A stretch of DNA of 64,000 bases from an uncultured Chloroflexia bacterium. Its GTDB lineage: Bacteria > Chloroflexota > Limnocylindria > Limnocylindrales > CSP1-4. The translations under genes were made by a program, and so were the position numbers. Under the pieces are notes generated by a model. That model was not told the origin of the DNA, ran no database searches, and saw only the letters and a program-made list of their open reading frames with translations. Positions 48,052 to 64,000 of the stretch are shown one piece after another (the first letter of the stretch is position 1; the number at the start of each line of letters is the position of its first letter). The stretch is taken from NCBI GenBank assembly GCA_963795645.1, contig CAWCIK010000006.1, forward strand, positions 1,298,259 to 1,362,258. Reading direction: 5' to 3'.

Positions 48052-48996
48052 TCACCTGGTTGCACTGCTCACCTCCCGCACGACGACCCTGCCCCGGAGC
48101 GCCTCGATCCGCGACGGATCGACCTGGCCCGCGCCGAGCTCGAGCACGCTGGCGCTCGCCGCCGCGCCGGCGGCGGCGAGCGCCTCCACGACTGAGCGAC
48201 CCGCCTCGAGCGCCACGACGAGGCCGGCGTTGAAGACATCGCCCGCGCCGACGGCGTTGACCGCCTTGAGACGCGGCACGCGCACCGTCCAGGCCTGCGT
48301 GCCGTCCGACGCGGCCGCACCGTTGGCGCCGTCGGTCACCACGGCCAGCTGCGCGCCGCGCGCCGCGAGGCGCGCGGCCATCGCACCAGCACCGGCAAAG
48401 GACGAACCTTCCGCGGCACCGGCCTCGCGCGCCTCGGCGAGAGTGACCTTGACCACGTCAGGCGCCGCGTCGAGCGCCAGCCCCAGCGCTTCGCCACCGG
48501 CGTCGACGAGGCACCTGGCCCCGGCCTCGTGAGCGGCGTGCACGAGCTGCGCGTACGAGTCGATCGGCAGGCCTGCGGGCAGCGAGCCCGAGCAGACGAG
48601 CCACGCCGTTCGGGGCAGCAGCTCGGCGCGCAGCTGGGCGATCAACCGCTCGAGGTCGCTCTCGGCCAGCACCGGGCCGGGCTCGTATATGAGCATGGAG
48701 CGGCCTGCCGCATCGGTCGCCACGTAGGTCGAGCGCGTCTCCGGTCCGGCGGTCAGGAAATGGGGTTCGAGGCCCTCCGCCGCCAGCGCCTCGACGAGCC
48801 AGGCGCCGGCATGACCGCCGCAGATACCGGTCGTGGCTACCTGCGCTCCGAGCAGCCGCGCCGCGCGGCAGGCGTTGACGCCCTTGCCGCCGGGCAGGAC
48901 GCGGACGTCGCTGGGGCGCAGGATCGTGTCGAACGCGAGCCGATCGACCAGCGCGGTGCGATCGACGGCCGGCGCGAGGGTGACTCCGACGATCAT
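48052..48996 (-). CDS. PfkB family kinase, 1-phosphofructokinase / tagatose-6-phosphate kinase (FruK/LacC)-like
   Basis: MIVGVTLAPAVDRT N-terminus typical of FruK/LacC; GG lid motif; C-terminal anion hole NAVGAGDVFNAGL; ATGA overlap with the upstream kinase. Confidence 0.8.
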   Translation of the reverse strand: MIVGVTLAPAVDRTALVDRLAFDTILRPSDVRVLPGGKGVNACRAARLLGAQVATTGICGGHAGAWLVEALAAEGLEPHFLTAGPETRSTYVATDAAGRSMLIYEPGPVLAESDLERLIAQLRAELLPRTAWLVCSGSLPAGLPIDSYAQLVHAAHEAGARCLVDAGGEALGLALDAAPDVVKVTLAEAREAGAAEGSSFAGAGAMAARLAARGAQLAVVTDGANGAAASDGTQAWTVRVPRLKAVNAVGAGDVFNAGLVVALEAGRSVVEALAAAGAAASASVLELGAGQVDPSRIEALRGRVVVREVSSATR

Positions 48997-50012
48997 CAGC
49001 CGGCTGCGACCGGGCCGTCGAGCAGCTCTGCCTGCGGCACGCGCTCGAGTGCCTGGTCTATCTGGCCGCGGCCGGCAATCGACTCGGCCCCGCCGCGGCC
49101 GCTGAGGCTGGCCGCGGCGGACGCGGTCGCGAAGCGGGCCGCGGTCGCGATATCGTCGCCGCGCGAGAGCGCATCGAGAAAGCCGGCGTCGAACGCGTCA
49201 CCGGCGCCGACTGCCTCGCGGACCAGTGCCTCGTCGATGCGCACCGCGGGCTGGCGATAGAGCCGTGTCCCGTCGCTGACGACGGCGCCGGCGCCGCCGA
49301 GCTTGATCGCCACCAGACGCGGCCCTGCCGCGTGGGCGGCCGCGACGAGGGCGGGCAGCGTGTCGGCCTCGAAGAGCATTCTTGCCTCGTGCTCGTCGCA
49401 CAGCAGGACGTCCGACTCGCGGACTACATCGGCGACATGCGGCAGCCATGGCGCGGGCGTATCGATCAGTGGAAACTGCGGATCGATCGAGGTCAGCACA
49501 CCCTTCGCGCGGGCCTGCCGGAAGAGCGCCGCCTGGCCGCGATGCCACATCTCCGGGAAGTGCAGCAAGCCGCCCGAGTGGAGCAGCCCGAGCGGGCGCG
49601 CGCCGGGCTCGTCAGCCCACAGGCCGGGCGGGGGATCCGGCCACGGCTCGAAGCTGGGCATGCGGTAGGTCATCGGGCGCTTTATGCCGCCGAAGAGCAT
49701 CACGTAGATCGCGATCGCGGTCACGCCGTCAGCGTCGGCCAGGTGCCGACAGTCCAGGCCGCGCTGCTCGAGCTCCTGCCGTATGGCGGCACCGAAGGCG
49801 TCCGAGCCGACCGTCGAGCAGACGTCGACGTGCCAGCCAAGCCGGGCGAAGACCTGCACGGTGTAGCCGATCGACCCGGCAACGAGCAGGTCGACATCGG
49901 ACGGGCCGACCCACGCGTTAAGCGGCTCCCGCTCAAGGGGTGCCGTGCCGCGCATGAAGAGGTCCATGTTCAGCGGCCCGATGACGGCCACACGCGGCCG
50001 TGCGTCGCTCAT
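48996..50012 (-). CDS. PfkB family carbohydrate kinase (ribokinase-like)
   Basis: 338 aa from MSDARPRVAVIGP; GAGDAFDAGFL motif. The ORF's N-terminal 263 codons are spurious. Confidence 0.8.
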   Translation of the reverse strand: MSDARPRVAVIGPLNMDLFMRGTAPLEREPLNAWVGPSDVDLLVAGSIGYTVQVFARLGWHVDVCSTVGSDAFGAAIRQELEQRGLDCRHLADADGVTAIAIYVMLFGGIKRPMTYRMPSFEPWPDPPPGLWADEPGARPLGLLHSGGLLHFPEMWHRGQAALFRQARAKGVLTSIDPQFPLIDTPAPWLPHVADVVRESDVLLCDEHEARMLFEADTLPALVAAAHAAGPRLVAIKLGGAGAVVSDGTRLYRQPAVRIDEALVREAVGAGDAFDAGFLDALSRGDDIATAARFATASAAASLSGRGGAESIAGRGQIDQALERVPQAELLDGPVAAG

Positions 50013-50026
50013 AGGTTCGTGATTGC

Positions 50027-51325
50027 TCAGTGCGTCCCGGGCGGGAAGAGCATGTTCCAGACGCGGGCGTGCTTGGGCACGTTCGAGCGCTGCGTATCGG
50101 GGTTGAGACCCAGGCCGACGCCGCAGTAGTAGGGGATGAGCTGGCCGGGCAGGACGGCCAGGACGGTGAACAGCACCTCGTCCTCGATCGGCAGGCGGAC
50201 GACGTAGTCGACGATGTCGGCGATCTTGTCGTCGTTCTGGCTGACGATCGCCACGGCCGGGCTCTTGAGCTGCTCGGTCACGCGGGCGATGTCGTGCAGG
50301 TCGCCATACGAGTCGCCCGGTGGCGCGACGAGCACGGTCAGGATCGATTCCTCGGTCAGGCCCAGCGCGCCGTGGATGTGGCGCCCGGGGTTCATCGACT
50401 TGGCCGGGATATGGCTCATCTCGTCGAACTTGAGCGCGATCTCCTCGGCCGTGCCGAAGTTCGCGCCGGCACCCACGACGAGCACGCTGCGCACGCCGAG
50501 GAACATGTCGGCGATCGTCCGGCAGCGCTTGTCGACAGCATCGAACATCTCGCCCATCAGGCGCGGCGTGTCGAGCAGCTGCGCCTGGAGCTTGTCGAAG
50601 TCGAACTTGCCCGGGTTGCGCAGCTTGCCCAGCTCGAGGGCCAGGTAGATCGCCGCGGCGATTCGAGTGGTGTAGTGGAAGGTGTCCGAGCCGCCGGTGT
50701 CGAAGCCGCCGGCGGTCAGGATGCGCGCGTCGCTGGCCTGCACTACCGGGCTGCCCTCGACGCTGGTGAGCGAGAGGGTGTACGCGCCGCGCTCGCGGCA
50801 CTCGCGCGCCGCGGCGACGGTGTCGACGGTGCTGCCGCTGCCCGAGTAGGCGACGGCGAGCAGCTTGCTGTAGTCGTACGGCGGCGGATAGCGCAGGAAC
50901 GCCTGCGAGTCGTAGTCCCAGCCGGGCACGCCCGCGAAGCGGGCAAAGGCCGCGTTGGCGACCTGGGCCACGAACTGCGAGGTGCCCGAGCCGAGACCCA
51001 CGATGCCCATGAAGTCGCGCTCGGCCAGCGTGCGCGCGACCTGCGCGATCTCGTCGGCGTGCTCGAAGGTCCCGCGCAGCGCCGAGGGCTGGCTCTTGAT
51101 ATCGCCGTACAGGTTGAACGGGTGATGGGTCTGGGCCGGAGTGCCGAGCGCCTTGTACATGATCGGCTCTTCGCCGGTCGCTTCGATCTGCTCGCGGATG
51201 TCGCCGACGATGCCCCAGGTCTTGATGCGCTGGCCGCGTTGCCGGACCTCGTCAAGGTCGACGGGTGCGCCGTCGGCCGATCCAGCGGCGCTCGGGGCCG
51301 TGCCTCGGTCGTGATCCTGTGGCAT
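50027..51325 (-). CDS. Double-SIS-domain sugar-phosphate isomerase/deaminase (AgaS/GlmS-C/FrlB-like)
   Basis: C-terminal 432 codons of the 1245-codon ORF. Own start ATG preceded by AAGGAG with an 8-nt spacer. Two SIS domains (GLGSGTSQFVA... and VVGAGANFGTAEEIALK...). Confidence 0.75.
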   Translation of the reverse strand: MPQDHDRGTAPSAAGSADGAPVDLDEVRQRGQRIKTWGIVGDIREQIEATGEEPIMYKALGTPAQTHHPFNLYGDIKSQPSALRGTFEHADEIAQVARTLAERDFMGIVGLGSGTSQFVAQVANAAFARFAGVPGWDYDSQAFLRYPPPYDYSKLLAVAYSGSGSTVDTVAAARECRERGAYTLSLTSVEGSPVVQASDARILTAGGFDTGGSDTFHYTTRIAAAIYLALELGKLRNPGKFDFDKLQAQLLDTPRLMGEMFDAVDKRCRTIADMFLGVRSVLVVGAGANFGTAEEIALKFDEMSHIPAKSMNPGRHIHGALGLTEESILTVLVAPPGDSYGDLHDIARVTEQLKSPAVAIVSQNDDKIADIVDYVVRLPIEDEVLFTVLAVLPGQLIPYYCGVGLGLNPDTQRSNVPKHARVWNMLFPPGTH

Positions 51326-53248
51326 GTCGTTCAACTCCTTGCGTGGATGCCAGCGCCAACCCGGGTGGTCCGGCCGGCTCCAGCCGCCGCGGGGCGGCTG
51401 GGAGGCCGACCGCGGACCAGGCACAGGTCCGCTGTCTGATGTGCTCGATCGGGATCCGGAAGCCGCGGCGGAGCCCGCGCTGCGCTCGTTCCTTGGCGGC
51501 ATGAGCGGCAGTGCCGGACGTCCGCCCGGTGCGGCGTGCGTCGCGCCATCCGTCGTGGCGGAGGGCACTGCCGGCCGGCCGTTCATGCCGGCGACCGCGC
51601 GGACGGCCTCATCGCGCAACCGGTTGCGCTGGACCTTGCCCGATTCGGTCATCGGGAAGGACTCGACGAAACGCACGTAGCGCGGCACCTCGAACCGGCC
51701 GAGGTGCTCGGCCAGGTGGCGCAGCAGCTCGTCCTCTGTCAGCTGCGCGCCTGCCGCCGGCCGCACGAAGGCGAAGATCTCCTCGCCGTAGTACTCAGAG
51801 GGCACGCCCACGACGTGCATCTCGGCGACCTTGGGGTGGCGCCGGCCGGCCGACTCGACCGCAGCCGGGTCGATGTTCTCGCCGCCGCGGATGATCATGT
51901 CCTTGATCCGTCCGACGATGCGCCAGACGCCGCTCGCGTCGACCGTGGCCAGGTCGCCGGTGTGCAGCCAGCCCTGGCGGTCGATAGCCTGGGCCGTTTC
52001 AGCGGGCATGTCGAAGTAGCCGCGCATGACCATCGAGCCGCGCGTGACCAGCTCGCCGGGCGTGCCGGCTGCGACCGGCTTGCCGGTGGCCGGGTCGATC
52101 GCGCGCACCTCTGCCCCCAGGATCGGCCGCCCGACACTGCCCAGGCGCACGTCCTCGGGATCGTCGATCGAGGTCTGGGTCACGACCGGCGCCGCCTCGG
52201 TCAGGCCGTAGGCAACGACCAGCTGCGGGATGTGCAGCTCGTGCGCCACGCGCCGACCCAGGTCGACCGGCACCGGGGCGCCGGCGATGATGCCCGTGCG
52301 CAGCGAGGACAGGTCCGTTCGCGTCCGCTCGGGGCTCTCGAGCAGGGCGACGAACATCGTCGGCACGCCATAGAGCACCGTGCAGTGCTCGGCGGCGACC
52401 GAGCGCAGCACAGCGTCCGCGTCGAAGACCTCGGACGGCAGCACGATGGCCGCCCCGTAGGTAACCGCCGCGAGCGTGCCCATGACCGCCCCGAAGCAGT
52501 GGTGGAAGGGGACCGGCAGACATACTCTGTCGCCGTTCGAGAGGCGGATGTTGGCGCCGACGGCAGCCGCGTTCTGGAGCATCGCCCGGTGCGTCAACTG
52601 GACGCCCTTGGGGAAACCGGTCGTGCCCGACGTGTACAGGATCATGCTCACATCGTCGGGCTGAGTCCGGCTCGCGGCGCGCGCCAGCTCGGCTTCGCTC
52701 GTGCCTTCGGCCGCGGCCGTGAAATCGGCCCAGCGCATGGCCGCGCCGGGAACGTCGGCGACCTCGGGCAGGGCAACGACGCGGCGCAGCGAGCGCGGCC
52801 CCTCGCCGCGAGCCAGGCGATCGAGGAGCGCGGTGCGCGGCTTGCGGTGAGTGCCGGCGATGAGCATGGCGGCCCCGGAGTTGGCCAGGATCTGCTCGAT
52901 CTCCTCGTCGCCCAGGCCGGCGTTGGCCGTGGCCACGATCACGCCCGCGTACGCCGCGCCGAGCTGCACGAGTGGCCACTCGGGCGCGTTGCGTGCCCAC
53001 ATGACGACCCGCTCACCCGGCGTGACGCCGAGCGCGAGCAGGGCGCGGCCCACCTGCTTGGCCTCGGCGTGGAGCTCGGCATAGTCGAGGCGCCTGCCGC
53101 TCGAGGCATGGACGAGAGCCTGACGCTGGCCGTTGCTGCGTGCTGCCCGATCGAGCAGCGCTCCGATGGTCGCGCTGCGCAGCTGGGGTTGGTGGCCGTT
53201 GCTGCCGGTCGCGGCCCTGCGCGCGAAGCCCGCCGGCGGCGCTGCGAC
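51326..53248 (-). CDS. AMP-forming acyl-CoA synthetase/ligase (FadD-like), reading through without a stop into the SIS gene frame
   Basis: Motifs ILYTSGTTGFPKGV, YGLTE, TGDL, IKDMIIRGGENI, ESGKVQR. Then an 85-aa low-complexity Pro/Ser/Arg tail with no stop codon before the SIS ATG. In another frame a TGA sits inside the SIS SD (AAGGAGTTGAACGACATG), as expected for a natural gene end. Boundaries approximate. Confidence 0.6.
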
Positions 53249-53764
53249 GGCGGCAAAGGCGGGCGTGGCCAGCAATGCGCCGAGCTCGGTCGCCCTGACC
53301 AGCAGGCCGGCCGCACCGCTGCGCAGCATCTGGTCGACCTCAGCGACGCCGGAGGCGGTGCCGATGACCGTCACACCCGGCGTGTCGCGCAGAGCGTCGA
53401 CCAGTGCGGGATCGCGCACGACGAGGGCGGTCGCGCCGCTCTCCACCGCGCGCCGCGCCTCGGCCGCGTTGGCGACCTGGGCCGCGATCGGCGCGCGACC
53501 GCGGCGGACGAGCTCGGTCACGAGCTGGTCTGTTGTCTCTGCCGGGCGATACAGGATGCCGGCACGGACCGGCAGCCGGGCCGCGAGCTGGGCGGGCGCG
53601 ATCTTGCCGTCGCGCTCGTCGATGCGCATGCACAACGTGTCGCCGGGCCGGCCGTAGAGCGGGCTGCTCCCGTTGACGACGATGATCGCGGCGATGCCCG
53701 ACGCGCGCGCGGCATCGAGCCCGGCGCGATCCTCGACCTCGACCCACAGGGCGGGCGTGCTCAT
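53249..53764 (-). CDS. Unknown about 170-aa alpha/beta domain (no confident family), first reading frame after the BMC shell genes; in frame with the ligase with no intervening stop
   Basis: ATG at 53764 overlaps the BMC-T stop (ATGA). Alternating hydrophobic beta-strand and Ala-rich helix pattern (GIAAIIVVNGSSPLYG ... ALVVRDPALVDALRDTPGVTVIGTASGVAEVDQML). Weak resemblance to KDPG-aldolase/OMPDC-like TIM folds, but catalytic Lys not found. Confidence 0.45.
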
Positions 53765-54411
53765 GCCGCGCTCCTGCGCGCGCCGCCGTCACGGCCGCTG
53801 AGCGATGCGAGCGCATCGAGTGCGCGCTCCTGGGCGATGCGCACGCTCGACTCCTCGCCGCTCACGTACAGCCGCCCGAATCGCCCGATGGGCCTGACAT
53901 CGATGATGTCGATATCTGCCGCGCGCTCGGCCTCGTTGGCGGCGAGCAGGATGTACGCCGCCGGCGTGACCTCGAGCACGAGCAGCGTCTCCTGGGGCAC
54001 CAGCAGCGAGCCCTTGCGGAAACGGTTCACCAGCTGGGCCTGGAAGGGCGTCACGTTGGTGATCAGGTTCTGCGACACGACCTGCGGTCGAAGGCGGTCG
54101 CCCTCGCTCAGGCCGATCCGCTCGAGAATGACGCGGCCCGCCTCGGCGACTTCCTGCGGGTCGGTCGCGTGGAGTGAGAGCATGCCGAACTCGCGCTCGA
54201 CGACCTGCGAGCTCGGACGCACGTTGGTCGCCTTGAGCGCCGCGTCGGCGAGCAGGTATATCTCGTTGCCCGGGGCGACCTCGATGAACAGCTGGGCCAT
54301 GCCGACGAGCGGGATGTCGCCATCTGCAACGGTCGCCTCGTAAGCCGCATAGCGCGGCTGCATGCGCGAGACGATGCCGTAGGCACGCAGCTCTCGACCG
54401 GCTCCGGGCAT
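53761..54411 (-). CDS. BMC-T shell protein (tandem/permuted BMC domains, EutL/PduB-like)
   Basis: Two BMC-like repeats (LFIEVAPGNEIYLLADAALKATNV and LLVLEVTPAAYILLAANEAERAADIDIIDV). Paralog of the BMC-T gene at 54707-55333. Start 3 nt after the EutN-like stop. Confidence 0.75.
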   Translation of the reverse strand: MPGAGRELRAYGIVSRMQPRYAAYEATVADGDIPLVGMAQLFIEVAPGNEIYLLADAALKATNVRPSSQVVEREFGMLSLHATDPQEVAEAGRVILERIGLSEGDRLRPQVVSQNLITNVTPFQAQLVNRFRKGSLLVPQETLLVLEVTPAAYILLAANEAERAADIDIIDVRPIGRFGRLYVSGEESSVRIAQERALDALASLSGRDGGARRSAA

Positions 54412-54414
54412 CAC

Positions 54415-54705
54415 TCAGACCTTGGTGTACTTGATCTTGCCGCCCTGGCGGACGGATTCGACGATGGCCACGATCGCGGCGTCGACGGGCACGCCATCGA
54501 TGCCGAGGGAACGTGCGGCCGGCGTGCCGCGCACGACGATGACCAGCTCCCCTTCGCCGGCGCCGACCGAGTCAGCCGCCACGTAGGCCTGGCCGGTGCC
54601 GGAACCATCGGCCGCTGCCTCCTCAACGAGGAGCAGCTTCATTCCTGTCAGCCGCGGCTCCTTGACCGAGGCTACGGCGCTGCCGACAACTCGTGCGAGC
54701 TGCAT
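54415..54705 (-). CDS. BMC vertex protein (BMC-P; EutN/PduN/CcmL family)
   Basis: 96 aa: MQLARVVGSAVASVKEPRLTGMKLLLVEE...GELVIVVRGTPAARSL...AAIVAIVESV is the EutN_CcmL fold signature. Strong SD GGAGGAGG. The ORF's upstream part is spurious. Confidence 0.85.
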   Translation of the reverse strand: MQLARVVGSAVASVKEPRLTGMKLLLVEEAAADGSGTGQAYVAADSVGAGEGELVIVVRGTPAARSLGIDGVPVDAAIVAIVESVRQGGKIKYTKV

Positions 54706-54706
54706 C

Positions 54707-55333
54707 TCAACCTCCTCCCGCGCCAACCGGCGCGACGCTCGATTCGCTGCGCAACGCGTCCACGACGGCGAGTGCCGTCTGCTCCGCAGCTGCGGCGTCC
54801 GCTTCGGTCCCGGCGACGAGCAAGCGTCCGAACAGACCCGTGCCGGCGACGCGCACCAGCTTGATGTCGACCGCCTTCTCGAGCTCGTTGGCCAGCACAT
54901 AGACGTACGCGGCGGGCGTGACCTCCATCACGAAGAGCGCGTCGCCGGGCAGCGTCCAAGCGCCGCGCCGCACCTTGTTGAACAGCTGGCTGTGGTCCGG
55001 AGCGATGTTCGGCAGCAGCTGGGTCGAGACCACTCTCGGCTCCAGCCGGTCGGACATGCGCATGCCGAGCTCGTCGAGGATCGCCTCGGATGCCTCGAGC
55101 ACCACGTCCGGCGCAGGCGCGTGGAGCTCGAGCAATCCGAAGTCACGCTCGATCAGCGTTCCCGCCGACCGAACGTCGCTGGCCTTCATGGCCCGATCCG
55201 TCAACGGGAAAACGGCATTGCTCGGCGAGACCTCGACCAGCAGCTGCGAGTACCCGGCACGGGGCATCGAGCCCTGTGCCATCAGCCCCCAATAGGCCGC
55301 GTACTGCGGACCCATGCGGTCGACATGGGCCAT
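54707..55333 (-). CDS. BMC-T shell protein (tandem/permuted BMC domains, EutL/PduB-like)
   Basis: 208 aa from MAHVDRMGPQYAAYW. Repeats LLVEVSPSNAVFPLTDRAMKASDV and LFVMEVTPAAYVYVLANELEKAVDIKLV. The ORF's long N-terminus is spurious. Confidence 0.78.
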   Translation of the reverse strand: MAHVDRMGPQYAAYWGLMAQGSMPRAGYSQLLVEVSPSNAVFPLTDRAMKASDVRSAGTLIERDFGLLELHAPAPDVVLEASEAILDELGMRMSDRLEPRVVSTQLLPNIAPDHSQLFNKVRRGAWTLPGDALFVMEVTPAAYVYVLANELEKAVDIKLVRVAGTGLFGRLLVAGTEADAAAAEQTALAVVDALRSESSVAPVGAGGG

Positions 55334-55368
55334 CACCCGCAGGCTGGTGCCGCTCGAGGCGGCGATCG

Positions 55369-55665
55369 TCACCCTTCGGCGACCATGATCGACTCGACCG
55401 CGTCGTCGGGCCGGGCGATGACGTGCTGGCTGACGAGCTCGCCGACCTTCTGGGCAGCCATGCCGCCGGCCTCGACCGCGGTCTTCACCGCGCCGACCTC
55501 GCCCTTGACGATGACCGTGACCAGGCCGTCGCCGACGAGCTGGCGCGACATGAGCGTGACCTGGGCCGCCTTGACCATTGCGTCGGCGGCCTCGACCGCG
55601 GCCACCAGGCCACGTGTCTCGATCATGCCGATTGCCGTTCCCGCTCCGCGGGCTGACTCTGCCAT
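55369..55665 (-). CDS. BMC-H shell protein (PduA/EutM/CcmK-like hexamer)
   Basis: IGMIETRGLVAAVEAADAMVKAAQVTLMSRQLVGDGLVTVIVKGEVGAVKTAVEAG is the canonical Pfam BMC (PF00936) sequence; SD AAGGAGG. Confidence 0.9.
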   Translation of the reverse strand: MAESARGAGTAIGMIETRGLVAAVEAADAMVKAAQVTLMSRQLVGDGLVTVIVKGEVGAVKTAVEAGGMAAQKVGELVSQHVIARPDDAVESIMVAEG

Positions 55666-55725
55666 TTCGGTTTCCTCCTTGTCCTTGCCTGAGATTGCCT
55701 TTGATTGACGGGGTGGCTGCTGGGC

Positions 55726-56019
55726 CTAGGGCTCCCTCCCTTCGAAGCGGAAGGCTCGATCGACCTCTTCGAACAGGCGCCCGAAAGTGCGCCCGCCGAT
55801 GAGCGTTCCCAGCCGGGAGGCCACCGCGCTTCCCGCGGCGACGGCCTCGTTGACCGCGGCGATGTCGCCGCGACATACGATCGTCACCAGCCCGTCGCCG
55901 ATAAGCACGGGGCCGGCGAGCCTGACCGGGGCGGACTTGGCCATCACGTCGGCAGCTCCGATCGCCCCGGTCAATCCACGCACCTCGACAAGTCCCACAG
56001 CACTGCCTCCGCCGCTCAC
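55726..56019 (-). CDS. Divergent BMC-H shell protein
   Basis: VGLVEVRGLTGAIGAADVMAKSAPVRLAG...GLVTIVCRGDIAAVNEAV matches the BMC domain core, but the C-terminus diverges. GTG at 56019 overlaps the Fe-ADH stop (GTGA); an internal GTG at 55998 with a GGAGG SD is an alternative start. Confidence 0.8.
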   Translation of the reverse strand: MSGGGSAVGLVEVRGLTGAIGAADVMAKSAPVRLAGPVLIGDGLVTIVCRGDIAAVNEAVAAGSAVASRLGTLIGGRTFGRLFEEVDRAFRFEGREP

Positions 56020-57158
56020 AGGGCGCGCTCGAACAGGCGCACCACGTCCTGCTCGCTCATGGGCCGCGGGTTGGTGGTCATGGTCAGATCAGCCATCGCG
56101 CGCGCGGCCAGATCCGGGATGCGCTCGCGCTCCACCCCAAGTGTGCCCAGGCCCTTGGGCAGCCCGATGCGGTCTCCGAGCCGGCGCAGCAGCGCAGGCA
56201 GGCGACGCGCGGACGCGCCCGGGGCGAGGATGCGCGCGACGCGCGCGTAGCGCTCACGAGCCGCCGGCTCGTTGTACTCGACGACATGGGGCAGCACGAT
56301 CGCGTTGCAGATGCCGTGGGGCAGGTCGTAGACGCCGCCCAGCGCGTGGGCCATGGCGTGCACCGCGCCGACGAGGGCCGAGTTGATCGCCAGCCCGGCG
56401 AGCAGCGCGCCGAGCATCATCGAATCGCGCGCCTCCAGGTCGTCGCCGTCCTCGACGGCCCGCTCCAGTGAGCCCGCGATCAGCTCGACCGCGCGCAGGG
56501 CATAGAGGTCGGTCATGTCCGACGCGAGCGTCGACACGTATGCCTCGATGGCGTGCGTCAGCGCGTCGAGGCCGGAGGCAACGGTCACGTTGCGCGGCAG
56601 TCCGACCGTCAGCAGCGGATCGTTGATCGCCAGGCGGGGCATCAGGTGCCGGTCGGCGATGATCATCTTCAGCTCGCGCGCAGGATCGGTGATGACCGCG
56701 TAGCGGCTCACGTCCGCGCCGCTGCCGGAGGTCGTGTTGACGCAGATCAGGGGCACCGAGCGATGCGCCGAGCGATCGACGCCCTCCAGGTCGCGTATTT
56801 CGCCGCCGTTGGCCGCGACGAGGGCGACGGTCTTGGCGCAGTCGTGCGCGCTGCCGCCGCCGACAGAGACGACGACCGCGACGTCGCGCCCGGCGCCGGC
56901 GTCGAGCGCCTCCTCGACCTGGCCGACGGTCGGATTTGGTTCGACTCGATCGAACACGATCACCTCCACGCCGGCGTCGCCCAGAGTGCGGTCGACGGAG
57001 CGCAGGATGGAGCTCGCGGCCAAACCGCGATCGGTGATGACCAGAGCTGTGCGCCCATAGCCTCGTGCGGCGGGGCCGAGCGTCGACAGCGCGCCGCGGC
57101 CGAAATTGATGCGCGGCGGAAGGTGGATCTCGGCGACGGACGGCATGCTCGCGGTCAT
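56016..57158 (-). CDS. Iron-containing alcohol dehydrogenase (FucO/PduQ/EutG-like)
   Basis: 380 aa; GGGSAHDCAK NAD-binding motif; Fe-ligand histidines (HAMAHALGG...LPHGICNA). Start ATG overlaps the ALDH stop (ATGA). Confidence 0.88.
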   Translation of the reverse strand: MTASMPSVAEIHLPPRINFGRGALSTLGPAARGYGRTALVITDRGLAASSILRSVDRTLGDAGVEVIVFDRVEPNPTVGQVEEALDAGAGRDVAVVVSVGGGSAHDCAKTVALVAANGGEIRDLEGVDRSAHRSVPLICVNTTSGSGADVSRYAVITDPARELKMIIADRHLMPRLAINDPLLTVGLPRNVTVASGLDALTHAIEAYVSTLASDMTDLYALRAVELIAGSLERAVEDGDDLEARDSMMLGALLAGLAINSALVGAVHAMAHALGGVYDLPHGICNAIVLPHVVEYNEPAARERYARVARILAPGASARRLPALLRRLGDRIGLPKGLGTLGVERERIPDLAARAMADLTMTTNPRPMSEQDVVRLFERAL

Positions 57159-58651
57159 CGGTCGCTCTCGGCGAACCAGTCGGTCGAGTGCTCGGCGAGG
57201 TTGACGTAGACGTTCTTGACCTCGGTGAACGACTCGATCGCGTGCGGCCCGTTCTCGCGTCCCCAACCGCTCTGACGGAAGCCGCCGAATGGTGCCTCGC
57301 TGGTGACGACGTTGTACATGTTGACCCAGATCGTGCCCGCCCTGATCGCGCGCGCCACGCGGTGCGCGAGCTTCACGTCGCGCGTCCAGACGCCCGCGGT
57401 CAGGCCGAAGATCGTGTCGTTGGCGATCCGGATCGCGTCCTCGGGCGTGTCGAAGGGCATGATCGCCACGACCGGGCCGAAGATCTCCTCGCGCGCAATG
57501 CGCATCTCGGGATGAATGTCGACAAAGACTGTCGGCGCTATGTAGTTGCCCCGCGCGAGCTCCGGCGCGGACGGCTTGACGCCTCCGATCAGCAGTCGCG
57601 CACCTTCCTCCCGACCTGAGCGGATGTGGTCCATGACGCGCGAGCAGTGGGTCGGCGAGATCAGTGGCCCGACGTCCGTCCGTGGATCAAGCGGATCGCC
57701 CATGCGCAATGCACCGGCGCGCTCGGTGAAGCGGGCGACAAAGGCGTCGAAGATGGGCCGCTGGACGAGCAGCCGCGAGCCGGCCGTGCAGATCTGACCC
57801 TGCGTCCAGAAGACGCCGAAGAGCGCGCCTGCGACGGCATCCTCGAGGGGCGCGTCCGCGAAGACGATGTTGGGCGCCTTTCCGCCCAGCTCGAGCGACA
57901 CACGCTTGAGGTTGCCTGCCGCCCCGGCGGCGATCTGCTTGCCAACGTCGGTCGAGCCGGTGAACGTGATCTTGTCGACGTCGGGGTGCTCGACCAGCGC
58001 CTGGCCGACCTTCGAATCTCCGATGACGACGTTGATCACGCCGGGCGGCAGGCCCGCTTCCTGGCAGATCTCGCCCAGGCGCAGTGTCGTCAGCGGCGTG
58101 TCGGACGCCGGCTTGATGACGACCGTGTTGCCCGCTGCCAGCGCTGGTCCGAGCTTCCAGGAAGCAAGCAGGAGCGGGAAATTGAAGGGCGTGATCGCGC
58201 CGACCACGCCGAGCGGCTCGCGCAGCGTGTAGCTCAGCACGTCGCCCGGAACCGGCAGCGTCTCGCCGGTGATCTTGGTCGCGAATCCGGCCCAGTACTC
58301 GAAGCAGTCGGCCGAGAGCGGCACGTCGATCTGGCTGCTCTCACGGATCGGTTTGCCGTTGTTGCGCGTCTCGAGCTCGGCGATGGCCTGGTTGTCACGC
58401 TCCATCAGAGCGGCGACGCGGAGCAGGTAGCGTCCGCGCTCGCTGGCCGACATGCGCGGCCACGGCCCCTCGTCGAACGCGCGCCGCGCCGCGGCAACGG
58501 CGGCATTGAGGTCGCGCAGGTCACCGGCCGGGACCTCGGCCAGCGGCTCGCCCGTGGCCGGGTTGTGGACGGTGGTCAGCCGGCCGCTGGCAGGCGCGAC
58601 CCAGCGGCCGTCGATGAGCTGGTTGGGGAAGGTCAACAGCGGGCTCGTCAC
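57155..58651 (-). CDS. NAD(P)-dependent aldehyde dehydrogenase, classical non-acylating type (AldA / betaine-aldehyde-DH-like)
   Basis: ITPFNFPLLL, VIKPASDTPLTT, ELGGKAPNIVFADA, GQICTAGSRL (catalytic Cys), EEIFGPVVAI, PFGGFRQSGWGRENG. Not the PduP/EutE acylating type. GTG start placed at MTSPLLTFPNQLIDGRW; a CTG overlapping the permease stop is an alternative. Confidence 0.85.
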   Translation of the reverse strand: MTSPLLTFPNQLIDGRWVAPASGRLTTVHNPATGEPLAEVPAGDLRDLNAAVAAARRAFDEGPWPRMSASERGRYLLRVAALMERDNQAIAELETRNNGKPIRESSQIDVPLSADCFEYWAGFATKITGETLPVPGDVLSYTLREPLGVVGAITPFNFPLLLASWKLGPALAAGNTVVIKPASDTPLTTLRLGEICQEAGLPPGVINVVIGDSKVGQALVEHPDVDKITFTGSTDVGKQIAAGAAGNLKRVSLELGGKAPNIVFADAPLEDAVAGALFGVFWTQGQICTAGSRLLVQRPIFDAFVARFTERAGALRMGDPLDPRTDVGPLISPTHCSRVMDHIRSGREEGARLLIGGVKPSAPELARGNYIAPTVFVDIHPEMRIAREEIFGPVVAIMPFDTPEDAIRIANDTIFGLTAGVWTRDVKLAHRVARAIRAGTIWVNMYNVVTSEAPFGGFRQSGWGRENGPHAIESFTEVKNVYVNLAEHSTDWFAESDR

Positions 58652-58659
58652 GGCCGCGG

Positions 58660-59610
58660 TCAGTCCCTGAACCGGTCGAGCGAGATGGCCACGATCAGGA
58701 TCGCGCCGAGCAGGACACGCTGGTACTCGGAATCGACGTGGAGCAGGATCAGGCCGTTGAGCAGGCTGGCCAGGAAGATCGACGCTATAAGCGTGTTCTC
58801 GATCCGGCCTCGACCGCCCTGCAGTCCGGCACCGCCGAGGATGACCGCGGTCAGGACCGGAAACAGCGCCGCATCGCCGAGCGACGCCGTCGCCTGCGAT
58901 ACGCGCGATACCCAGACCACTCCACCCAGGCCGGCCAACGCCCCAGCTGCGATGAAGACGGCCATCCGAATCCGATTGACGCGGATGCCCGCACGGAACG
59001 CCGCCTCGCGGTTGTCGCCGACGAGGTAGACATGGGCGCCGAACGGAGTCCGGTTGAGGATGAACCAGGCGATCGTGTAGCCGATGAACATGAGCAGGAC
59101 CGGGATGGGCACGATGCCGATGTAGCCGCCCGCCAGCCAGTCGATCGGATCGAGCGCGGGACCGGTGATCGCGTGGCCCTGCGTATAGACCAGGCCAATG
59201 CCGAGCACGACGCTGAGCATGCCCAGAGTGGCTACGACCGACGGGATGCGGAAGAAGGTCACGAGTGTGCCGTTCACCACGCCGACAAGCGTGCCGATGA
59301 GAACCGCGGCGCCGATCGCGATGATCGGGTCGTAGCCCGAGACGAGCAGCTCCGCGGCGGTCACGCCGGCGACGCCGATGACGCTGCCGAACGAGAGGTC
59401 GAGCTCGCCGACCAGGATGACGAACGTCGCGCCGATGGCCGGGATGGCATAGATCGAGGCCTGGCGCAGGAGGAGCGGGATATTCCGCTCGGTCAGGAAC
59501 GTGTCCGTGGTGAACGACAGGAAGATGATCCAGCCGATGAAGAAGACGATGAAGCCGTAGTCGGCCAGGAAGTCGATGACGCGGACCCGGATGGGCGTGC
59601 GGTGCAGCAT
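58660..59610 (-). CDS. Sugar ABC transporter permease (RbsC/BPD_transp_2 family)
   Basis: 8-10 TM segments and the conserved GG.G...N.L...D.G motifs of monosaccharide ABC permeases. ATG at 59610 chosen (a TTG at 59664 is the alternative). Confidence 0.8.
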   Translation of the reverse strand: MLHRTPIRVRVIDFLADYGFIVFFIGWIIFLSFTTDTFLTERNIPLLLRQASIYAIPAIGATFVILVGELDLSFGSVIGVAGVTAAELLVSGYDPIIAIGAAVLIGTLVGVVNGTLVTFFRIPSVVATLGMLSVVLGIGLVYTQGHAITGPALDPIDWLAGGYIGIVPIPVLLMFIGYTIAWFILNRTPFGAHVYLVGDNREAAFRAGIRVNRIRMAVFIAAGALAGLGGVVWVSRVSQATASLGDAALFPVLTAVILGGAGLQGGRGRIENTLIASIFLASLLNGLILLHVDSEYQRVLLGAILIVAISLDRFRD

Positions 59611-59630: not shown

Positions 59631-61793
59631 TCACGAGGCCGGCTCCAGGCGCAGCACGGCACAACCCTGCGGCGGCACCTCGAACGTGAACGACACGACA
59701 TCTTCGTCGCCGGTCGCGTTGTTCGCCGCGATCGGCGGAGCCGACGCGTTGACGCTGACCGCGTTGTAGGCGACGCCGGCCTCAAGGCCGACTCTCGTGC
59801 GCGGCAGGTTGACCGTGACCTGGCGCGCAAAGCGCGAGTCGCCCATCCAGCCCGACTCGAGGTTGCCCAGCAGCAGGTGGATGCGCCCATTGCTACGCCA
59901 GCAGCTGACCGTGACCGGCTCGTGGGCGGCCACCTGGTCGACGCTCAACCCACCGCTTTGGGCGGCGCGATCGTTGAGCAGACGGGCGACCTCCACGTAC
60001 GGGTTGACGCTGCCGATCTGCGAATGAGGGACGAGCGGGTTACCCGGGTCGGCCAGGTCGGGCGGTTGCCAGTGGTAGACGCCGTCGCGACCGGCGAGAA
60101 GAGGCAGACCATCGGACGCGTAGCCGATCCAGGTGCCTTCGTCGGCGCTCAGCGCGCTGCGCTCGGGCAGGTGAACACGTTCCTCGGGCGCCAGGTCGTG
60201 GCTCGACGGCGCTCCGAGACGGTAGCCATCGGGCTGGCGTTCGCCGGTCAGGGCGACGCCCGCCGCGGTCAGGAGCGCCGGCTCGACCAGGTCCGCCCGG
60301 CCGCTGCCGACGAGTGCACCCCAGCGGCCATCGAGCTTTCCCGCTGCCGCTGCCGACGGCATCTGCCAGAGCAGGCCGTCGGGCCACTGCCCGGGCAGCC
60401 ACTCTGGGCGGCTGGCGGCCAGGAAGGCCGCCCCCCATTTGAGCGCCATTCCGGCATAGTCCTCGGCCCACTCGCTGCCGTTGCTGGCCGGGTCGTGCTC
60501 GTACTTGGCCTCGAGGCCGGCCCGGTCATGGACGAGCAGCGGCCCGAAGACGGCCTCGATGCCAGCGGCGCTCGACTCTGCCGCGGCCAGCCGCGTGGCA
60601 AGGAAGTCGACGTCCTGCGTGCTGATCAGGCGCTTGTTCCAGTCGTTCATCCAGCTGATGTAGGTCCCCTCGGGAACCACCGGCCGGCCGTCGCGATCGA
60701 GCACAGCGGCGTGGCCGAAGGCCCACATCGCCCATTCGAGCTTTCCCGGCGTGTCGTGCAGCGTGTCCCACGGCTCCCAGCCGTCCCAGGTCTCGATCAA
60801 GTTGTATTGGCGGCACGGGCTTGCCCCTGTCGCGGCGCGCGTCTCGTTGCCGCCGCGGATCTGGGCGCCGTGGCCGAGCAGGTAGGCGAGCTGGAAGGTC
60901 CAGCCCTTCCAAGTGTCATCCCACCAGTCTTGCCAGGCACCGCCCCAGGTCTGGTCGATGAAGATGTCGAGTGCGCCGTCGGCGACTATCGCCTCCAGGT
61001 CGACGCAGCCGGCGAGCCACTCCGACGTGCCGCTGATGCCGCTCGAATAGGTCATCACCAGGCCTTCGGGATGGGCTTCCTTGCACGCCCGGAAGAGGCG
61101 CCGGACAGCGTCGGTCCACGAGCGGTTCTCGTCCGGGTCGCTCGAGGCGACGCTGCCATACGGGCCTACGCGGGTGTAGAGCAGCGGGCCGAACATGCCG
61201 TCGCGCAGGTGGATCAGGTCGAGCCCGAGATAACGGGCGACCGAGCCCCACTGGGCGCCGAAGAACTCTGGAAAGGGCTCGCCCTCGGCGATGCCGTCGG
61301 GCCGAGTCGCGTAGCGGTACGAGTCGGCATGAAGCCGCACTCGAGGATCGAGGTCGGGTCCGGGCAGGGGCGAGATGTCGAGCGGATAGAGCTCGGGATG
61401 GCGGTCGTACCAGAACGAATAGAGGTCGTACATGCTGCCCGTATCAGGCGGGGCCACGACCTGGCCGAGACCGGCGATGAGCACGCCCATCTTGATGTCG
61501 GTCAGGCCGTGCGCGGCATACGCCGCACGGAGCGAGGAGATGAACTCGCGCAGGTCGGCATAGCTGAGGCCGGCCCAGCGCGCGTAGCGGCGGGAGCGGA
61601 GCGGCAGCGGCTGGTCGCCGCTGCCGCTCCATTCGGTTACGAGATCGGCCAGCCAGCCGATGTTGAAGCAGACGCCGCGCAGATCACGCTCACCCGCCAA
61701 CAGGGGCAGGGTGCGCTCGGCAAACTCGACCTGGCGGTCGGCCCAGGGCCGTTCGCCAAACCAGTCGATGTCCACCTCGATCCAGCGGTCCAC
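59631..61793 (-). CDS. Hypothetical 720-aa cytoplasmic protein (Trp-rich; possibly glycoside-hydrolase-like TIM barrel) embedded in the sugar ABC transporter gene set
   Basis: GTG start with GAGGGAGA SD 25 nt after the SBP stop; no signal peptide; many W/Y/D residues (QTWGGAWQDWWDDTWKGW); no family recognised. Confidence 0.55.
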   Translation of the reverse strand: MDRWIEVDIDWFGERPWADRQVEFAERTLPLLAGERDLRGVCFNIGWLADLVTEWSGSGDQPLPLRSRRYARWAGLSYADLREFISSLRAAYAAHGLTDIKMGVLIAGLGQVVAPPDTGSMYDLYSFWYDRHPELYPLDISPLPGPDLDPRVRLHADSYRYATRPDGIAEGEPFPEFFGAQWGSVARYLGLDLIHLRDGMFGPLLYTRVGPYGSVASSDPDENRSWTDAVRRLFRACKEAHPEGLVMTYSSGISGTSEWLAGCVDLEAIVADGALDIFIDQTWGGAWQDWWDDTWKGWTFQLAYLLGHGAQIRGGNETRAATGASPCRQYNLIETWDGWEPWDTLHDTPGKLEWAMWAFGHAAVLDRDGRPVVPEGTYISWMNDWNKRLISTQDVDFLATRLAAAESSAAGIEAVFGPLLVHDRAGLEAKYEHDPASNGSEWAEDYAGMALKWGAAFLAASRPEWLPGQWPDGLLWQMPSAAAAGKLDGRWGALVGSGRADLVEPALLTAAGVALTGERQPDGYRLGAPSSHDLAPEERVHLPERSALSADEGTWIGYASDGLPLLAGRDGVYHWQPPDLADPGNPLVPHSQIGSVNPYVEVARLLNDRAAQSGGLSVDQVAAHEPVTVSCWRSNGRIHLLLGNLESGWMGDSRFARQVTVNLPRTRVGLEAGVAYNAVSVNASAPPIAANNATGDEDVVSFTFEVPPQGCAVLRLEPAS

Positions 61794-63908: not shown

Positions 63909-64000
63909 GAGGCCTCCTCTGTCTGTTTGGCCCTGAACCGTGGGCTCCATCCCCCGTTGTGTTGCTGCCGGCCGTCCCGTTCCCTAATGCGGGTATTCAG

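What the first reader, a model, noticed from the sequence alone, without database searches (positions are those of the whole stretch)
50027..53764. 1245-codon stop-free ORF concatenating three independent enzyme modules (unknown domain, acyl-CoA ligase, SIS protein)
The SIS module has its own strong SD (AAGGAG with 8-nt spacer) and ATG at 51325. The ligase is a complete FadD-type enzyme followed by an 85-aa Pro/Ser/Arg-rich junk-like tail. A TGA stop occurs in a different frame exactly inside the SIS SD (AAGGAGTTGAACGACATG), the normal position for an upstream gene's stop. This argues that the ligase originally terminated there and that a frameshift now fuses the reading frames, or that the organism genuinely makes a ligase-SIS fusion. 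The N-terminal 170-aa domain is also in the same frame as the ligase with no stop between them.
Basis: seen in the sequence. Interest (0 to 1): 0.65.

Follow-up and report, generated by a model that had tools for sequence, protein, structure and literature searches.

The report
Three-module microcompartment enzyme, real fusion
The 1245-codon reading frame is a genuine, conserved gene that joins a small barrel domain, an acyl-CoA ligase and a sugar-phosphate isomerase inside an unclassified bacterial microcompartment operon, and it still carries the isomerase's old ribosome-binding site, so it may make two proteins.

Summary
The ORF (50027-53764, minus strand, 1245 codons) exists as described. 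It is not a frameshift artefact. About 37 orthologues at 52-65% identity, from MAGs labelled Chloroflexi, Dormibacterales and Binatia, have the same three modules in one frame. The Pro/Ser/Arg-rich "junk" tail is a disordered linker of 68-125 aa. It always stays in frame and holds two conserved short motifs.

The gene always follows the shell genes of a microcompartment locus that the 2021 BMC catalog left unassigned. That locus has a betaine-aldehyde-dehydrogenase-like ALDH, an Fe-ADH and no phosphotransacylase.

Closely related operons without a microcompartment carry the SIS gene alone. One distant microcompartment locus keeps ligase and SIS as overlapping separate genes. The fusion therefore captured a pre-existing SIS gene.

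It is retained in frame, 4-9 codons (27 here) before the SIS module, in 11 of 12 distinct fused DNA sequences and in about 30 of 32 proteins.

I infer two products, the full fusion and a free SIS isoform, as in CcmM M58/M35. This is untested. The substrate is unknown.

The parts
50027..53764 (-). Complete 1245-codon ORF (stop codon at 50027-50029) encoding the three-module protein
53761..53764 (-). ATGA overlap: the stop of the upstream BMC-T shell gene (53761-54414) overlaps the start codon of the fusion, suggesting translational coupling
   Evidence: Overlap or a gap of 0-2 nt is seen in L081 and L083-L089
53240..53764 (-). N-terminal domain (aa 1-175): compact eight-stranded TIM-barrel-like fold. 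It is an orphan family with no conserved Lys
   Evidence: AF2 pLDDT 90. Foldseek best hits are small transaldolase/FSA, TM 0.66, 12-15% identity. Only 15 relatives among 1.84 billion representatives. No column with more than 20% Lys
53180..53239 (-). Short variable connector between barrel and ligase (aa 176-195)
51584..53179 (-). ANL-superfamily acyl-CoA ligase module (aa 196-727). Core motifs are intact, including YTSGTTGFPKG (52604-52636) and SGKVQR (51626-51643)
51245..51583 (-).
   Evidence: Length 68-125 aa and always in frame in 32 homologues. AF2 pLDDT below 50 over the whole linker of P0035
51491..51514 (-). Linker motif 1, ALPLMPPR (consensus LPLxxxK)
   Evidence: L752 and P753 invariant or nearly so. 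Also present in the unfused ligase tail of P0134
51350..51397 (-). Linker motif 2, PPRGGWSRPDHPGWRW (consensus PPRPGWxRPxxxxWxW)
   Evidence: G794, W795, P798 and W803 invariant. Present in P0134. Absent from stand-alone SIS proteins
51335..51340 (-). Internal Shine-Dalgarno-like AAGGAG, in frame as Lys-Glu
   Evidence: duplex energy -8.8 kcal/mol, against -6.6 for the ORF's own start
51323..51325 (-). Internal in-frame ATG (Met814). It is the candidate start of a 432-aa free SIS isoform
   Evidence: P0135 (89% identical, 429 aa) was called from the equivalent ATG
51331..51333 (-). TGA in the +1 frame inside the SD-ATG spacer. Possibly a relic, not demonstrable
50030..51244 (-). GlmS-type double-SIS sugar-phosphate isomerase/deaminase module (aa 841-1245), including a subfamily-specific N-terminal extension (51140-51244). 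It retains equivalents of GlmS K485, E488, H504 and K603, namely K1112, E1115, H1131 and K1231
53761..56019 (-). Shell gene block directly upstream: BMC-H 55726-56019, BMC-H 55369-55665, CcmP/CsoS1D-like BMC-T ~54707-55330, BMC-P ~54415-54708, BMC-T 53761-54414
   Evidence: The same order is seen in L081, L083 and L090
56016..58675 (-). Fe-dependent alcohol dehydrogenase (56016-~57158) and betaine-aldehyde-dehydrogenase-like ALDH (57155-~58675)
48052..50030 (-). Two PfkB kinases downstream. PfkB1 (48996-~50012) is shared with the microcompartment-free operon. PfkB2 (48052-48996) is 1-PFK/hexose-kinase type and occurs only in the microcompartment version

Best explanation
Shown: 50027-53764 is one real, selectively maintained gene of a bacterial microcompartment (BMC) operon. 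It encodes four parts in order. First, an orphan mini TIM-barrel domain. Second, an AMP-forming acyl-CoA ligase with intact core motifs. Third, a disordered linker of about 110 aa carrying two conserved short motifs. Fourth, a GlmS-type double-SIS sugar-phosphate isomerase/deaminase with the catalytic residues intact. The gene arose when a BMC module (ALDH, Fe-ADH, five shell genes and the barrel-ligase gene, accompanied by a second PfkB kinase gene added downstream) was placed in front of the SIS gene of an older sugar-derivative uptake and kinase operon, and the ligase frame was joined to the SIS frame.

Inferred: the SIS gene's original Shine-Dalgarno sequence and start codon survive in frame inside the linker and are conserved across the family. 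The gene therefore most likely yields two products: the ~135 kDa full-length fusion, started at the ATG coupled to the BMC-T shell gene, and a ~46 kDa free SIS protein started at Met814. This resembles CcmM M58/M35 of beta-carboxysomes.

Inferred, weaker: the fusion and its linker motifs serve to co-package ligase and SIS with the shell. The ligase converts the acid made by the non-acylating ALDH into an acyl-CoA, replacing the usual acylating aldehyde dehydrogenase plus phosphotransacylase pair. The substrate is unknown. It is probably an amino- or deoxy-sugar derivative.

Component confidences: true conserved fusion 0.97; capture of a pre-existing SIS gene 0.85; internal initiation functional 0.55; cargo or scaffold role 0.4.
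For: Fusion is real. About 37 full-length homologues at 52-65% identity have the same Pfam architecture. Alignments of 23 and 32 sequences show the linker in frame despite lengths of 68-125 aa, with invariant residues in two motifs read in the ORF frame. The ORF is continuous in 12 distinct fused DNA sequences (window, L081, L083-L089, L093-L095; L091 repeats the L085 lineage).

BMC context. Synteny is identical in L081 and L083. A BMC-T gene lies upstream and PfkB downstream in every locus fetched.

Capture history. L101 and L092 have SBP, the 720-aa orphan, permease, SIS and PfkB1 at 66-79% identity, with no BMC block. Their SIS gene starts at AGGAGG-N6-ATG, six codons before the anchor. L090 has barrel-ligase-tail and SIS as separate genes with a 13-nt overlap in a BMC context.

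Internal start. An in-frame SD plus ATG/GTG ranks 1-4 among 40-78 in-frame ATG/GTG codons in 8 of 9 ORFs. The window test gives p = 0.001-0.06 per ORF, Fisher combined 2e-7. Five of five Val codons at the site are GTG, against 34% background. The protein pattern [QKEGR]-E-x(1-4)-[VM] occurs in 29 of 32 homologues against 15% background. The residue before Glu varies among Q, K, E, G and R; in all nine fused DNA sequences read, its codon ends in AG or GG. That pattern points to RNA-level constraint. L093-L095 add three more cases with dG -10.3 to -11.5. In the window the internal SD (-8.8) is stronger than that of the ORF's own start (-6.6).

Modules. The SIS alignment to GlmS keeps K485, E488, H504 and K603 equivalents, which are invariant. 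The ALDH scores 569 bits on the BADH model (cut-off 669). No PduL or Pta family appears in the syntenic block. The linker has pLDDT below 50.
Against: There are no expression, proteomic or ribosome-profiling data, so the short isoform is purely inferred. The sequences are phylogenetically related, so the combined p-value overstates significance. The Binatia clade (L087, P0025, P0032) has only a weak AGGA-N6-ATG. In the window and its close relative the start lies 27 codons upstream of the anchor rather than 4-9. The SD could persist for other reasons. No canonical amphipathic encapsulation peptide was recognised. The linker motifs have no demonstrated partner. The AF2 model of the full protein has low pTM (0.48), so domain arrangement is unknown. 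No aldehyde-generating enzyme is identified in the locus, so the pathway role of ligase, ALDH and ADH is conjecture.
Confidence: 0.65

Rival explanations
1. Sequencing or assembly frameshift, or a recent pseudogenising indel, artificially joins separate ligase and SIS genes (and the N-terminal ORF) in this genome.
For: GC3 in the ORF frame dips over 51380-51530. An internal SD and ATG and an out-of-frame TGA are present. The closest relative, L082, has the gene called in two pieces.
Against: About 37 orthologues and 12 distinct fused DNA sequences have the same single ORF. Conserved motifs are read in the ORF frame inside the 'junk'. L082 also shows a fused permease-ALDH, broken PfkB genes and a missing shell gene, which points to assembly errors.
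Confidence: 0.02
2. True fusion with a single product. The internal SD and start is a silent relic of the captured SIS gene and is not used.
For: The site is homologous to the true start of stand-alone SIS genes, so its presence needs no new function. It is weak in the Binatia clade. The residues after the start ([VM]SLDDVR) are simply the native N-terminus of the SIS protein.
Against: The SD lies in what is otherwise the least conserved stretch of the protein, yet stays strong (dG -7.7 to -11.6) in lineages only 55-65% identical. The codon before Glu changes amino acid but keeps its AG/GG ending. Val at the site is always GTG.
Confidence: 0.3
3. The SD-like sequence acts as an elongation pause between modules, aiding co-translational folding, and not as an initiation site.
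For: It lies at a domain boundary in a disordered linker.
Against: A pause element would not need an in-frame ATG/GTG 5-9 nt downstream, yet one is present in essentially all members. The site's origin as a real start is documented.
Confidence: 0.03

Closest known systems
[quoted passage not shown]
   Same: It is a multi-module protein encoded in a microcompartment locus, with modules joined by flexible linkers. An in-frame internal SD and start lies just before the C-terminal module, so a long and a short isoform are expected from one gene.
   Different: There is no sequence or fold relation. The modules here look like active enzymes (ligase, SIS isomerase) rather than Rubisco-binding repeats. 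The internal start is inherited from a captured gene. Isoforms and any scaffold role are untested.
GlmS isomerase domain and the FrlB / AgaS / NagB-II double-SIS enzymes
   Same: Two SIS domains are present. The best solved relatives are GlmS isomerase domains (E = 4e-24). Equivalents of K485, E488, H504, K603 and the Ser/Thr phosphate loop are conserved. The module is partnered with a PfkB kinase and an ABC transporter, as in frl-type operons.
   Different: There is no glutaminase domain. All NCBIfam scores are far below cut-offs. It has a subfamily-specific N-terminal extension (RxRGxRIKxWGI...EQIEATGExPIMY). Here it is fused to a ligase. The substrate is unknown.
ANL-superfamily acyl-CoA synthetases (PRK12583/FadD3-like; feruloyl-, 4-coumaroyl-, oxalyl- and malonyl-CoA ligases among solved relatives)
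   Same: Full AMP-binding and AMP-binding_C domains are present with invariant core motifs.
   Different: It is below every equivalog cut-off (566 against 832 bits at best). It carries an N-terminal orphan barrel and a C-terminal disordered tail with conserved motifs. It is encoded within a shell-gene cluster.
Aldehyde-oxidising metabolosome BMCs of the 2021 catalog (PMC8217296), especially ARO, whose AldDh is atypical and lacks an encapsulation peptide
   Same: BMC-H, BMC-T and BMC-P shell genes are clustered with a PF00171 aldehyde dehydrogenase and an Fe-ADH. The BMC-P of the orthologous Chloroflexi GWC2_73_18 locus sits next to a Micromonospora sequence in the catalog tree.
   Different: The orthologous locus is labelled bmcType=UA (omitted) in the catalog. 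The ALDH is betaine-aldehyde-dehydrogenase-like, not PduP/EutE-like. No phosphotransacylase is present. An AMP-forming ligase fused to SIS is present. PF00501 and PF01380 are not in the catalog's HMM table.
Small transaldolase / fructose-6-phosphate aldolase (TalC/FSA) TIM barrels
   Same: They are the best structural matches to the N-terminal domain (TM 0.62-0.68), and both are compact barrels.
   Different: Identity is 12-15%. No Schiff-base Lys exists anywhere in the domain. The domain is ~170 aa and shorter still in the Dormibacterales clade. No sequence relatives exist outside this fusion family.

Membership tests
ANL (AMP-forming) acyl-CoA ligase | AMP-binding and AMP-binding_C domains above Pfam gathering scores | tested here: met
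   317 bits (cut-off 29.9) and 68.8 bits (cut-off 24.5)
ANL (AMP-forming) acyl-CoA ligase | Core motifs present: (S/T)SGTTGxPKG, YGxTE, TGD and the catalytic Lys of SGKxxR | tested here: met
   T378-G387, Y519-E523, T602-D604 and K710 are invariant in 23 sequences
ANL (AMP-forming) acyl-CoA ligase | Assignment to a substrate-specific equivalog | tested here: not met
   Best NCBIfam hit PRK12583 scores 566 bits against a cut-off of 832; all others are also below cut-off
GlmS-type double-SIS phosphosugar isomerase/deaminase | Two SIS domains | tested here: met
   Pfam SIS with 2 stretches, 73 bits. Alignment to the GlmS isomerase domain spans both halves
GlmS-type double-SIS phosphosugar isomerase/deaminase | Catalytic and ring-opening residues (E. 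coli GlmS K485, E488, H504, K603; residue roles from established literature, recalled from memory) | tested here: met
   They align to K1112, E1115, H1131 and K1231, which are invariant
GlmS proper / FrlB deglycase | N-terminal glutaminase domain (GlmS), or equivalog-level similarity to FrlB | tested here: not met
   No glutaminase domain. The glmS model scores 133 bits against a cut-off of 418. The putative FrlB-type structure 3eua matches only at E = 1.9e-6
Bacterial microcompartment locus | Genes for BMC-H (PF00936), BMC-T and BMC-P (PF03319) clustered together | tested here: met
   (CcmP-like BMC-T, 228 bits). The same set occurs in L081, L083 and L090
Canonical metabolosome core | Acylating aldehyde dehydrogenase plus phosphotransacylase (PduL/Pta) plus alcohol dehydrogenase | tested here: not met
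   The ALDH matches classical BADH-type models. No PduL or Pta is found in the syntenic block. An ADH is present
Assigned BMC type of the 2021 catalog | Locus placed in a named type | tested here: not met
   The orthologous shell genes A2X23_10740/45/50 are labelled bmcType=UA (main)(omitted)
CcmM-like dual-isoform gene | In-frame internal SD and start codon before the C-terminal module, conserved among orthologues | tested here: met
CcmM-like dual-isoform gene | Short isoform actually produced, with a scaffold function | not testable with these tools
   Needs proteomics or initiation-site profiling
Class I aldolase / transaldolase (N-terminal domain) | Schiff-base-forming Lys on a barrel strand | tested here: not met
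   No alignment column has more than 20% Lys. The similarity is of fold only
BMC cargo with encapsulation peptide | Amphipathic helix of ~18 aa set off by a linker at a terminus or between domains | tested here: inconclusive
   None was recognised by eye or in the AF2 model; the linker is predicted without helices. The catalog's EP HMMs could not be run

The most novel reading that the evidence does not exclude
The gene is the organising hub of a previously unclassified microcompartment type. One reading frame gives a full-length multivalent protein (barrel, ligase, a disordered tail with shell- or cargo-binding motifs, and a SIS domain that, if it dimerises like its GlmS relatives, adds valency) and, from a conserved internal ribosome-binding site, a free SIS isoform that tunes the network. 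This would be a metabolosome counterpart of CcmM M58/M35. The compartment would use a non-acylating ALDH plus an AMP-forming ligase instead of the acylating dehydrogenase and phosphotransacylase core.
Probability: 0.25. Interest if true: 0.8.

Novelty: new variant of a known kind. Interest (0 to 1): 0.6.

Why it matters
Three points would interest microcompartment researchers. First, this is a locus type that the reference catalog left unassigned, and its core chemistry departs from the standard metabolosome: a non-acylating ALDH plus an ATP-dependent ligase, with no phosphotransacylase. Second, matched operons exist with and without the organelle, at 66-79% identity. This is a natural before-and-after pair for asking what a microcompartment adds to a pathway and how cargo is recruited, here by fusing a new enzyme onto an existing gene. 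Third, the conserved internal start makes a dual-isoform mechanism directly testable outside carboxysomes. For genome annotation, the case shows that a long stop-free ORF with a 'junk' linker and an internal SD in a high-GC genome can be a real fusion and should not be split.

Tried and rejected
1. Frame analysis. GC3 suggested another frame over the linker. Translating all three frames gave no plausible alternative protein, and the +1 frame holding the TGA has upstream stops. I rejected a frameshift in favour of a composition effect.
2. The genome-contig scan with the full-length alignment was swamped by the generic ligase motif GWLHTGDL and returned only ordinary ligases, apart from L011. 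That scan was largely wasted.
The source organism remains unidentified.
4. The closest relative, L082, appeared to have split genes. I rejected it as evidence because the contig has multiple other frame errors.
5. Class I aldolase function for the N-domain was rejected because no Lys is conserved.
6. No similar linker motif occurs elsewhere in the six-frame translation of the window.
7. Literature searches for this architecture or this BMC type found nothing.
9. The 720-aa neighbour gave no hit in Pfam, NCBIfam or PDB, so it did not help identify the substrate.
10. Rfam found no RNA family in the window.


Full report
**Observation**

The window is about 70% G+C. A single ATG-initiated ORF of 1245 codons runs from 53764 to 50027 on the minus strand.

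- Pfam finds AMP-binding (aa 205-584), AMP-binding_C (636-710) and two SIS stretches.
- The NCBIfam ligase profiles end near aa 725.
- An in-frame ATG (Met814, 51325-51323) is preceded by AAGGAG (51340-51335) with a 9-nt spacer.
- A TGA lies in the +1 frame inside that spacer.
- The ~85 aa before Met814 are Pro/Ser/Arg/Gly/Ala-rich.
- GC3 in the ORF frame is about 0.9 everywhere except 51380-51530, where it falls to 0.70-0.77.

So the description is accurate apart from small details: the spacer length, and the TGA being next to the SD rather than inside it.

**Is it a frameshift?**

No. A protein search with the whole ORF returned about 37 full-length homologues. They are 1098-1263 aa long and 52-65% identical, with 97-100% coverage in most. 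All carry AMP-binding, AMP-binding_C and SIS. They come from metagenome-assembled genomes labelled Chloroflexi, Candidatus Dormibacterales/Dormibacteraeota and Candidatus Binatia.

In alignments of 23 and 32 of them, the ligase-SIS linker varies from 68 to 125 aa and is 49-69% Pro/Ser/Gly/Ala/Thr. It is always in frame and contains two conserved motifs read in the ORF frame:

- LPLxxxK, which is ALPLMPPR here (51491-51514).
- PPRPGWxRPxxxxWxW, which is PPRGGWSRPDHPGWRW here (51350-51397).

The ORF is continuous in 12 distinct fused DNA sequences: the window, L081, L083-L089 and L093-L095. L091 repeats the L085 lineage.

The one apparent exception among close relatives is L082, at 87% nucleotide identity. 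It lies on a contig that also has a fused permease-ALDH, broken PfkB genes and a missing shell gene. I attribute its split gene to assembly errors.

**Context**

The gene is the tenth in a long minus-strand operon. In transcription order the genes are:

1. A duplicated sugar-binding protein.
2. A 720-aa protein with no known family.
3. An ABC permease.
4. A betaine-aldehyde-dehydrogenase-like ALDH (569 bits, cut-off 669).
5. An Fe-ADH.
6. Two BMC-H genes.
7. A CcmP/CsoS1D-like BMC-T.
8. A BMC-P.
9. A second BMC-T.
10. The fusion, whose ATG overlaps the BMC-T stop as ATGA.
11. Two PfkB kinases. The second is a 1-PFK/hexose-kinase type that scores above its cut-off.

An ABC ATPase and a HAD phosphatase lie on the other strand. 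The order is the same in L081 and L083, at 55-76% protein identity. Every fetched orthologue is flanked by BMC-T upstream and PfkB downstream. No PduL or Pta phosphotransacylase occurs in the block.

In the supplementary trees of the 2021 BMC catalog, the shell genes next to orthologue P0012 (A2X23_10755, Chloroflexi GWC2_73_18) are labelled bmcType=UA (main)(omitted), that is, unassigned. The catalog's HMM table contains neither PF00501 nor PF01380. Literature searches found no description of this locus type or this architecture.

**The modules**

*N-terminal domain.*
- With a 22-sequence alignment, AlphaFold2 gives a confident model (pLDDT 90) of an eight-stranded beta/alpha barrel of only ~170 aa.
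- The best solved matches are the small transaldolase / fructose-6-phosphate aldolase family (TM 0.62-0.68, 12-15% identity) and designed minimal TIM barrels.
- No alignment column has more than 20% Lys, so a class I aldolase mechanism is excluded.
- The conserved residues are mostly Arg, Gly and Pro, plus one Tyr and one Trp.
- A profile search of 1.84 billion representative proteins found only 15 relatives, all members or fragments of this same family. The domain is an orphan.

*Ligase.* All ANL core motifs are invariant. Solved relatives include feruloyl-, coumaroyl-, fatty-acyl-, oxalyl- and malonyl-CoA ligases. No equivalog cut-off is reached.

*SIS module.*
- The best solved relatives are GlmS isomerase domains (E = 4e-24).
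- The alignment puts K1112, E1115, H1131 and K1231 opposite GlmS K485, E488, H504 and K603. The roles of those GlmS residues are from established literature, recalled from memory. All four are invariant in the family.
- A conserved N-terminal extension (RxRGxRIKxWGI...EQIEATGExPIMYxALGT) precedes the first SIS domain.

*Full-length model.* A full-length model of orthologue P0035 shows three folded modules and a linker with pLDDT below 50 throughout, including both motifs. pTM is 0.48, so no domain arrangement can be inferred.

**Origin of the fusion**

A search with the SIS part alone found about 440 homologues. Many are stand-alone proteins of ~411 aa at up to 85% identity that begin MSLD[DE].R.RGQRIK.

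- **L101 and L092 (plain operon).** These metagenome loci carry binding protein, 720-aa orphan, permease, SIS and PfkB1, with the ABC ATPase convergent (seen in L101; L092 ends before it). Identity to the window proteins is 62-79%. They have no ALDH, ADH, shell genes, barrel-ligase or second kinase. Their SIS gene starts at an ATG six codons before the anchor Arg, behind AGGAGG.
- **More distant plain versions.** L011, L096 and L098 are further examples.
- **L090 (unfused, BMC context).** This divergent BMC locus has a 746-aa barrel-ligase protein whose tail carries both linker motifs and ends in TAG. A separate SIS gene starts 13 nt before that stop in another frame, behind AAGGAG-N7-ATG, five codons before the anchor.

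The simplest history is this. A BMC block, ending in the barrel-ligase gene, was inserted between permease and SIS of a pre-existing operon. The two adjacent genes were first coupled by overlap and then joined into one frame. It places the event deep in evolution, not in this assembly.

**The internal start is conserved**

- In nine fused ORFs I scored every in-frame ATG/GTG for anti-SD pairing. A site 4-9 codons (27 in the window) before the SIS anchor ranks first to fourth of 40-78 candidates in eight of the nine, with dG -7.7 to -11.6 kcal/mol.
- Compared with all other 30-codon windows of the same ORF, the site is in the top 0.1-6% in those eight. L087 is at 22%. The Fisher combined value is 2e-7, which is overstated because the sequences are related.
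- L093-L095 add three further cases at -10.3 to -11.5.
- All five Val codons at the site are GTG, against 34% GTG among Val codons of these ORFs.
- At protein level, [QKEGR]-E-x(1-4)-[VM] occurs in 29 of 32 homologues within 30 aa of the anchor, and in the window just outside that range. The background is 15%.
- The residue before Glu varies among Gln, Lys, Glu, Gly and Arg. These are chemically unlike. In all nine fused DNA sequences read, its codon ends in AG or GG, which preserves AGGAG or GGGAG. This points to selection on the RNA and not on the protein.
- In the window the internal SD (-8.8) is stronger than that of the ORF's own start (-6.6) and of most operon genes.
- P0135, 89% identical, was called by a gene finder from the ATG equivalent to Met814.

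The frame of the linker is also conserved despite free length variation. I therefore infer that both the full-length protein and a free SIS isoform (432 aa here) are made. [quoted passage not shown] This is inference and no expression data exist. The main rival is a silent relic (my estimate about 0.3).

**Function**

*Shown:* all three enzyme-like parts are under purifying selection, and two have intact catalytic motifs.

*Inferred:* the plain operon imports a sugar derivative, phosphorylates it (PfkB1) and isomerises or deaminates it (SIS). The BMC version adds a second phosphorylation (PfkB2), an aldehyde-handling pair (ALDH and ADH) and a ligase.

The ALDH looks non-acylating and no phosphotransacylase is present. 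The ligase is therefore the obvious route from the acid product to a CoA ester. This would make the compartment depend on ATP and CoA entry. Two CsoS1D/CcmP-type BMC-T genes are present.

The enzyme that generates the aldehyde, and the substrate, are not identified. The barrel domain is a candidate binding or oligomerisation module and not an aldolase.

The two linker motifs are absent from stand-alone SIS proteins and present in the unfused ligase tail of L090. They therefore belong to the BMC-specific ligase and are candidates for shell or cargo docking. No canonical encapsulation peptide was recognised.

**Verdict**

The artefact reading is rejected. The fusion is genuine, ancient and tied to an unassigned BMC type. 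The internal SD and ATG is the captured gene's start and is probably still in use. Novelty: a new variant of a known kind. Interest: 0.6.

Noticed in passing
window 59631-61793 (-); also L081 1911-4070, L083 1973-4114, L101 821-2953: A conserved ~720-aa Trp-rich protein lies between the sugar-binding protein and the permease. It is present in both the microcompartment version and the plain version of the operon (64-69% identity). It has no hit in Pfam, NCBIfam or PDB sequences. It is likely the enzyme that defines the substrate.
   Followed up: partly
window 61818-63950 (-): The periplasmic sugar-binding protein gene is a head-to-tail duplication fused into one 710-aa ORF. The repeat period is 936 nt, and a 300-nt reference stretch is 94% identical between the copies. 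Orthologues have a single ~340-360-aa gene; the close relative L082 has two separate genes.
   Followed up: partly
L101 1-9215 and L092 1-6113 (JGI/GenBank metagenome contigs): These are microcompartment-free versions of the same operon: binding protein, 720-aa orphan, permease, SIS and PfkB1, with the convergent ABC ATPase seen in L101 (L092 ends before it). Identity to the window proteins is 62-79%. Together with the window they form a natural with-and-without-organelle pair.
   Followed up: partly
window 57155-58675 (-): The aldehyde dehydrogenase of this microcompartment locus is a classical betaine-/aminoaldehyde-dehydrogenase-like ALDH (TIGR01804 569 bits, PRK13252 565 bits against a cut-off of 593). 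It is not the PduP/EutE-like acylating type. No phosphotransacylase gene lies in the conserved block.
   Followed up: partly
window 55726-56019 (-): One of the two BMC-H proteins ends in a C-terminal extension, TFGRLFEEVDRAFRFEGREP, beyond the BMC domain. It looks like an amphipathic helix.
   Followed up: no
L082 (ENA ERZ25039539 contig_74804), whole locus: The closest relative of the window (87% nucleotide identity over the gene) has several broken or falsely fused genes: permease joined to ALDH, PfkB in pieces, and the second BMC-T missing. This suggests indel errors in that assembly, so its split ligase and SIS calls should not be trusted.
   Followed up: partly
L081 17433-22270: In orthologous locus L081, genes for a split transketolase (N and C parts), a class III aminotransferase and an S15 peptidase lie just beyond the convergent ABC ATPase. 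I did not check whether they belong to the pathway.
   Followed up: no
window 51380-51530 (-): There is a local drop of third-position GC in the true frame, with an apparent signal in another frame. It coincides with the Pro/Ala/Gly/Arg/Ser-rich linker. Frame-plot methods can mislead in disordered linkers of high-GC genomes.
   Followed up: yes
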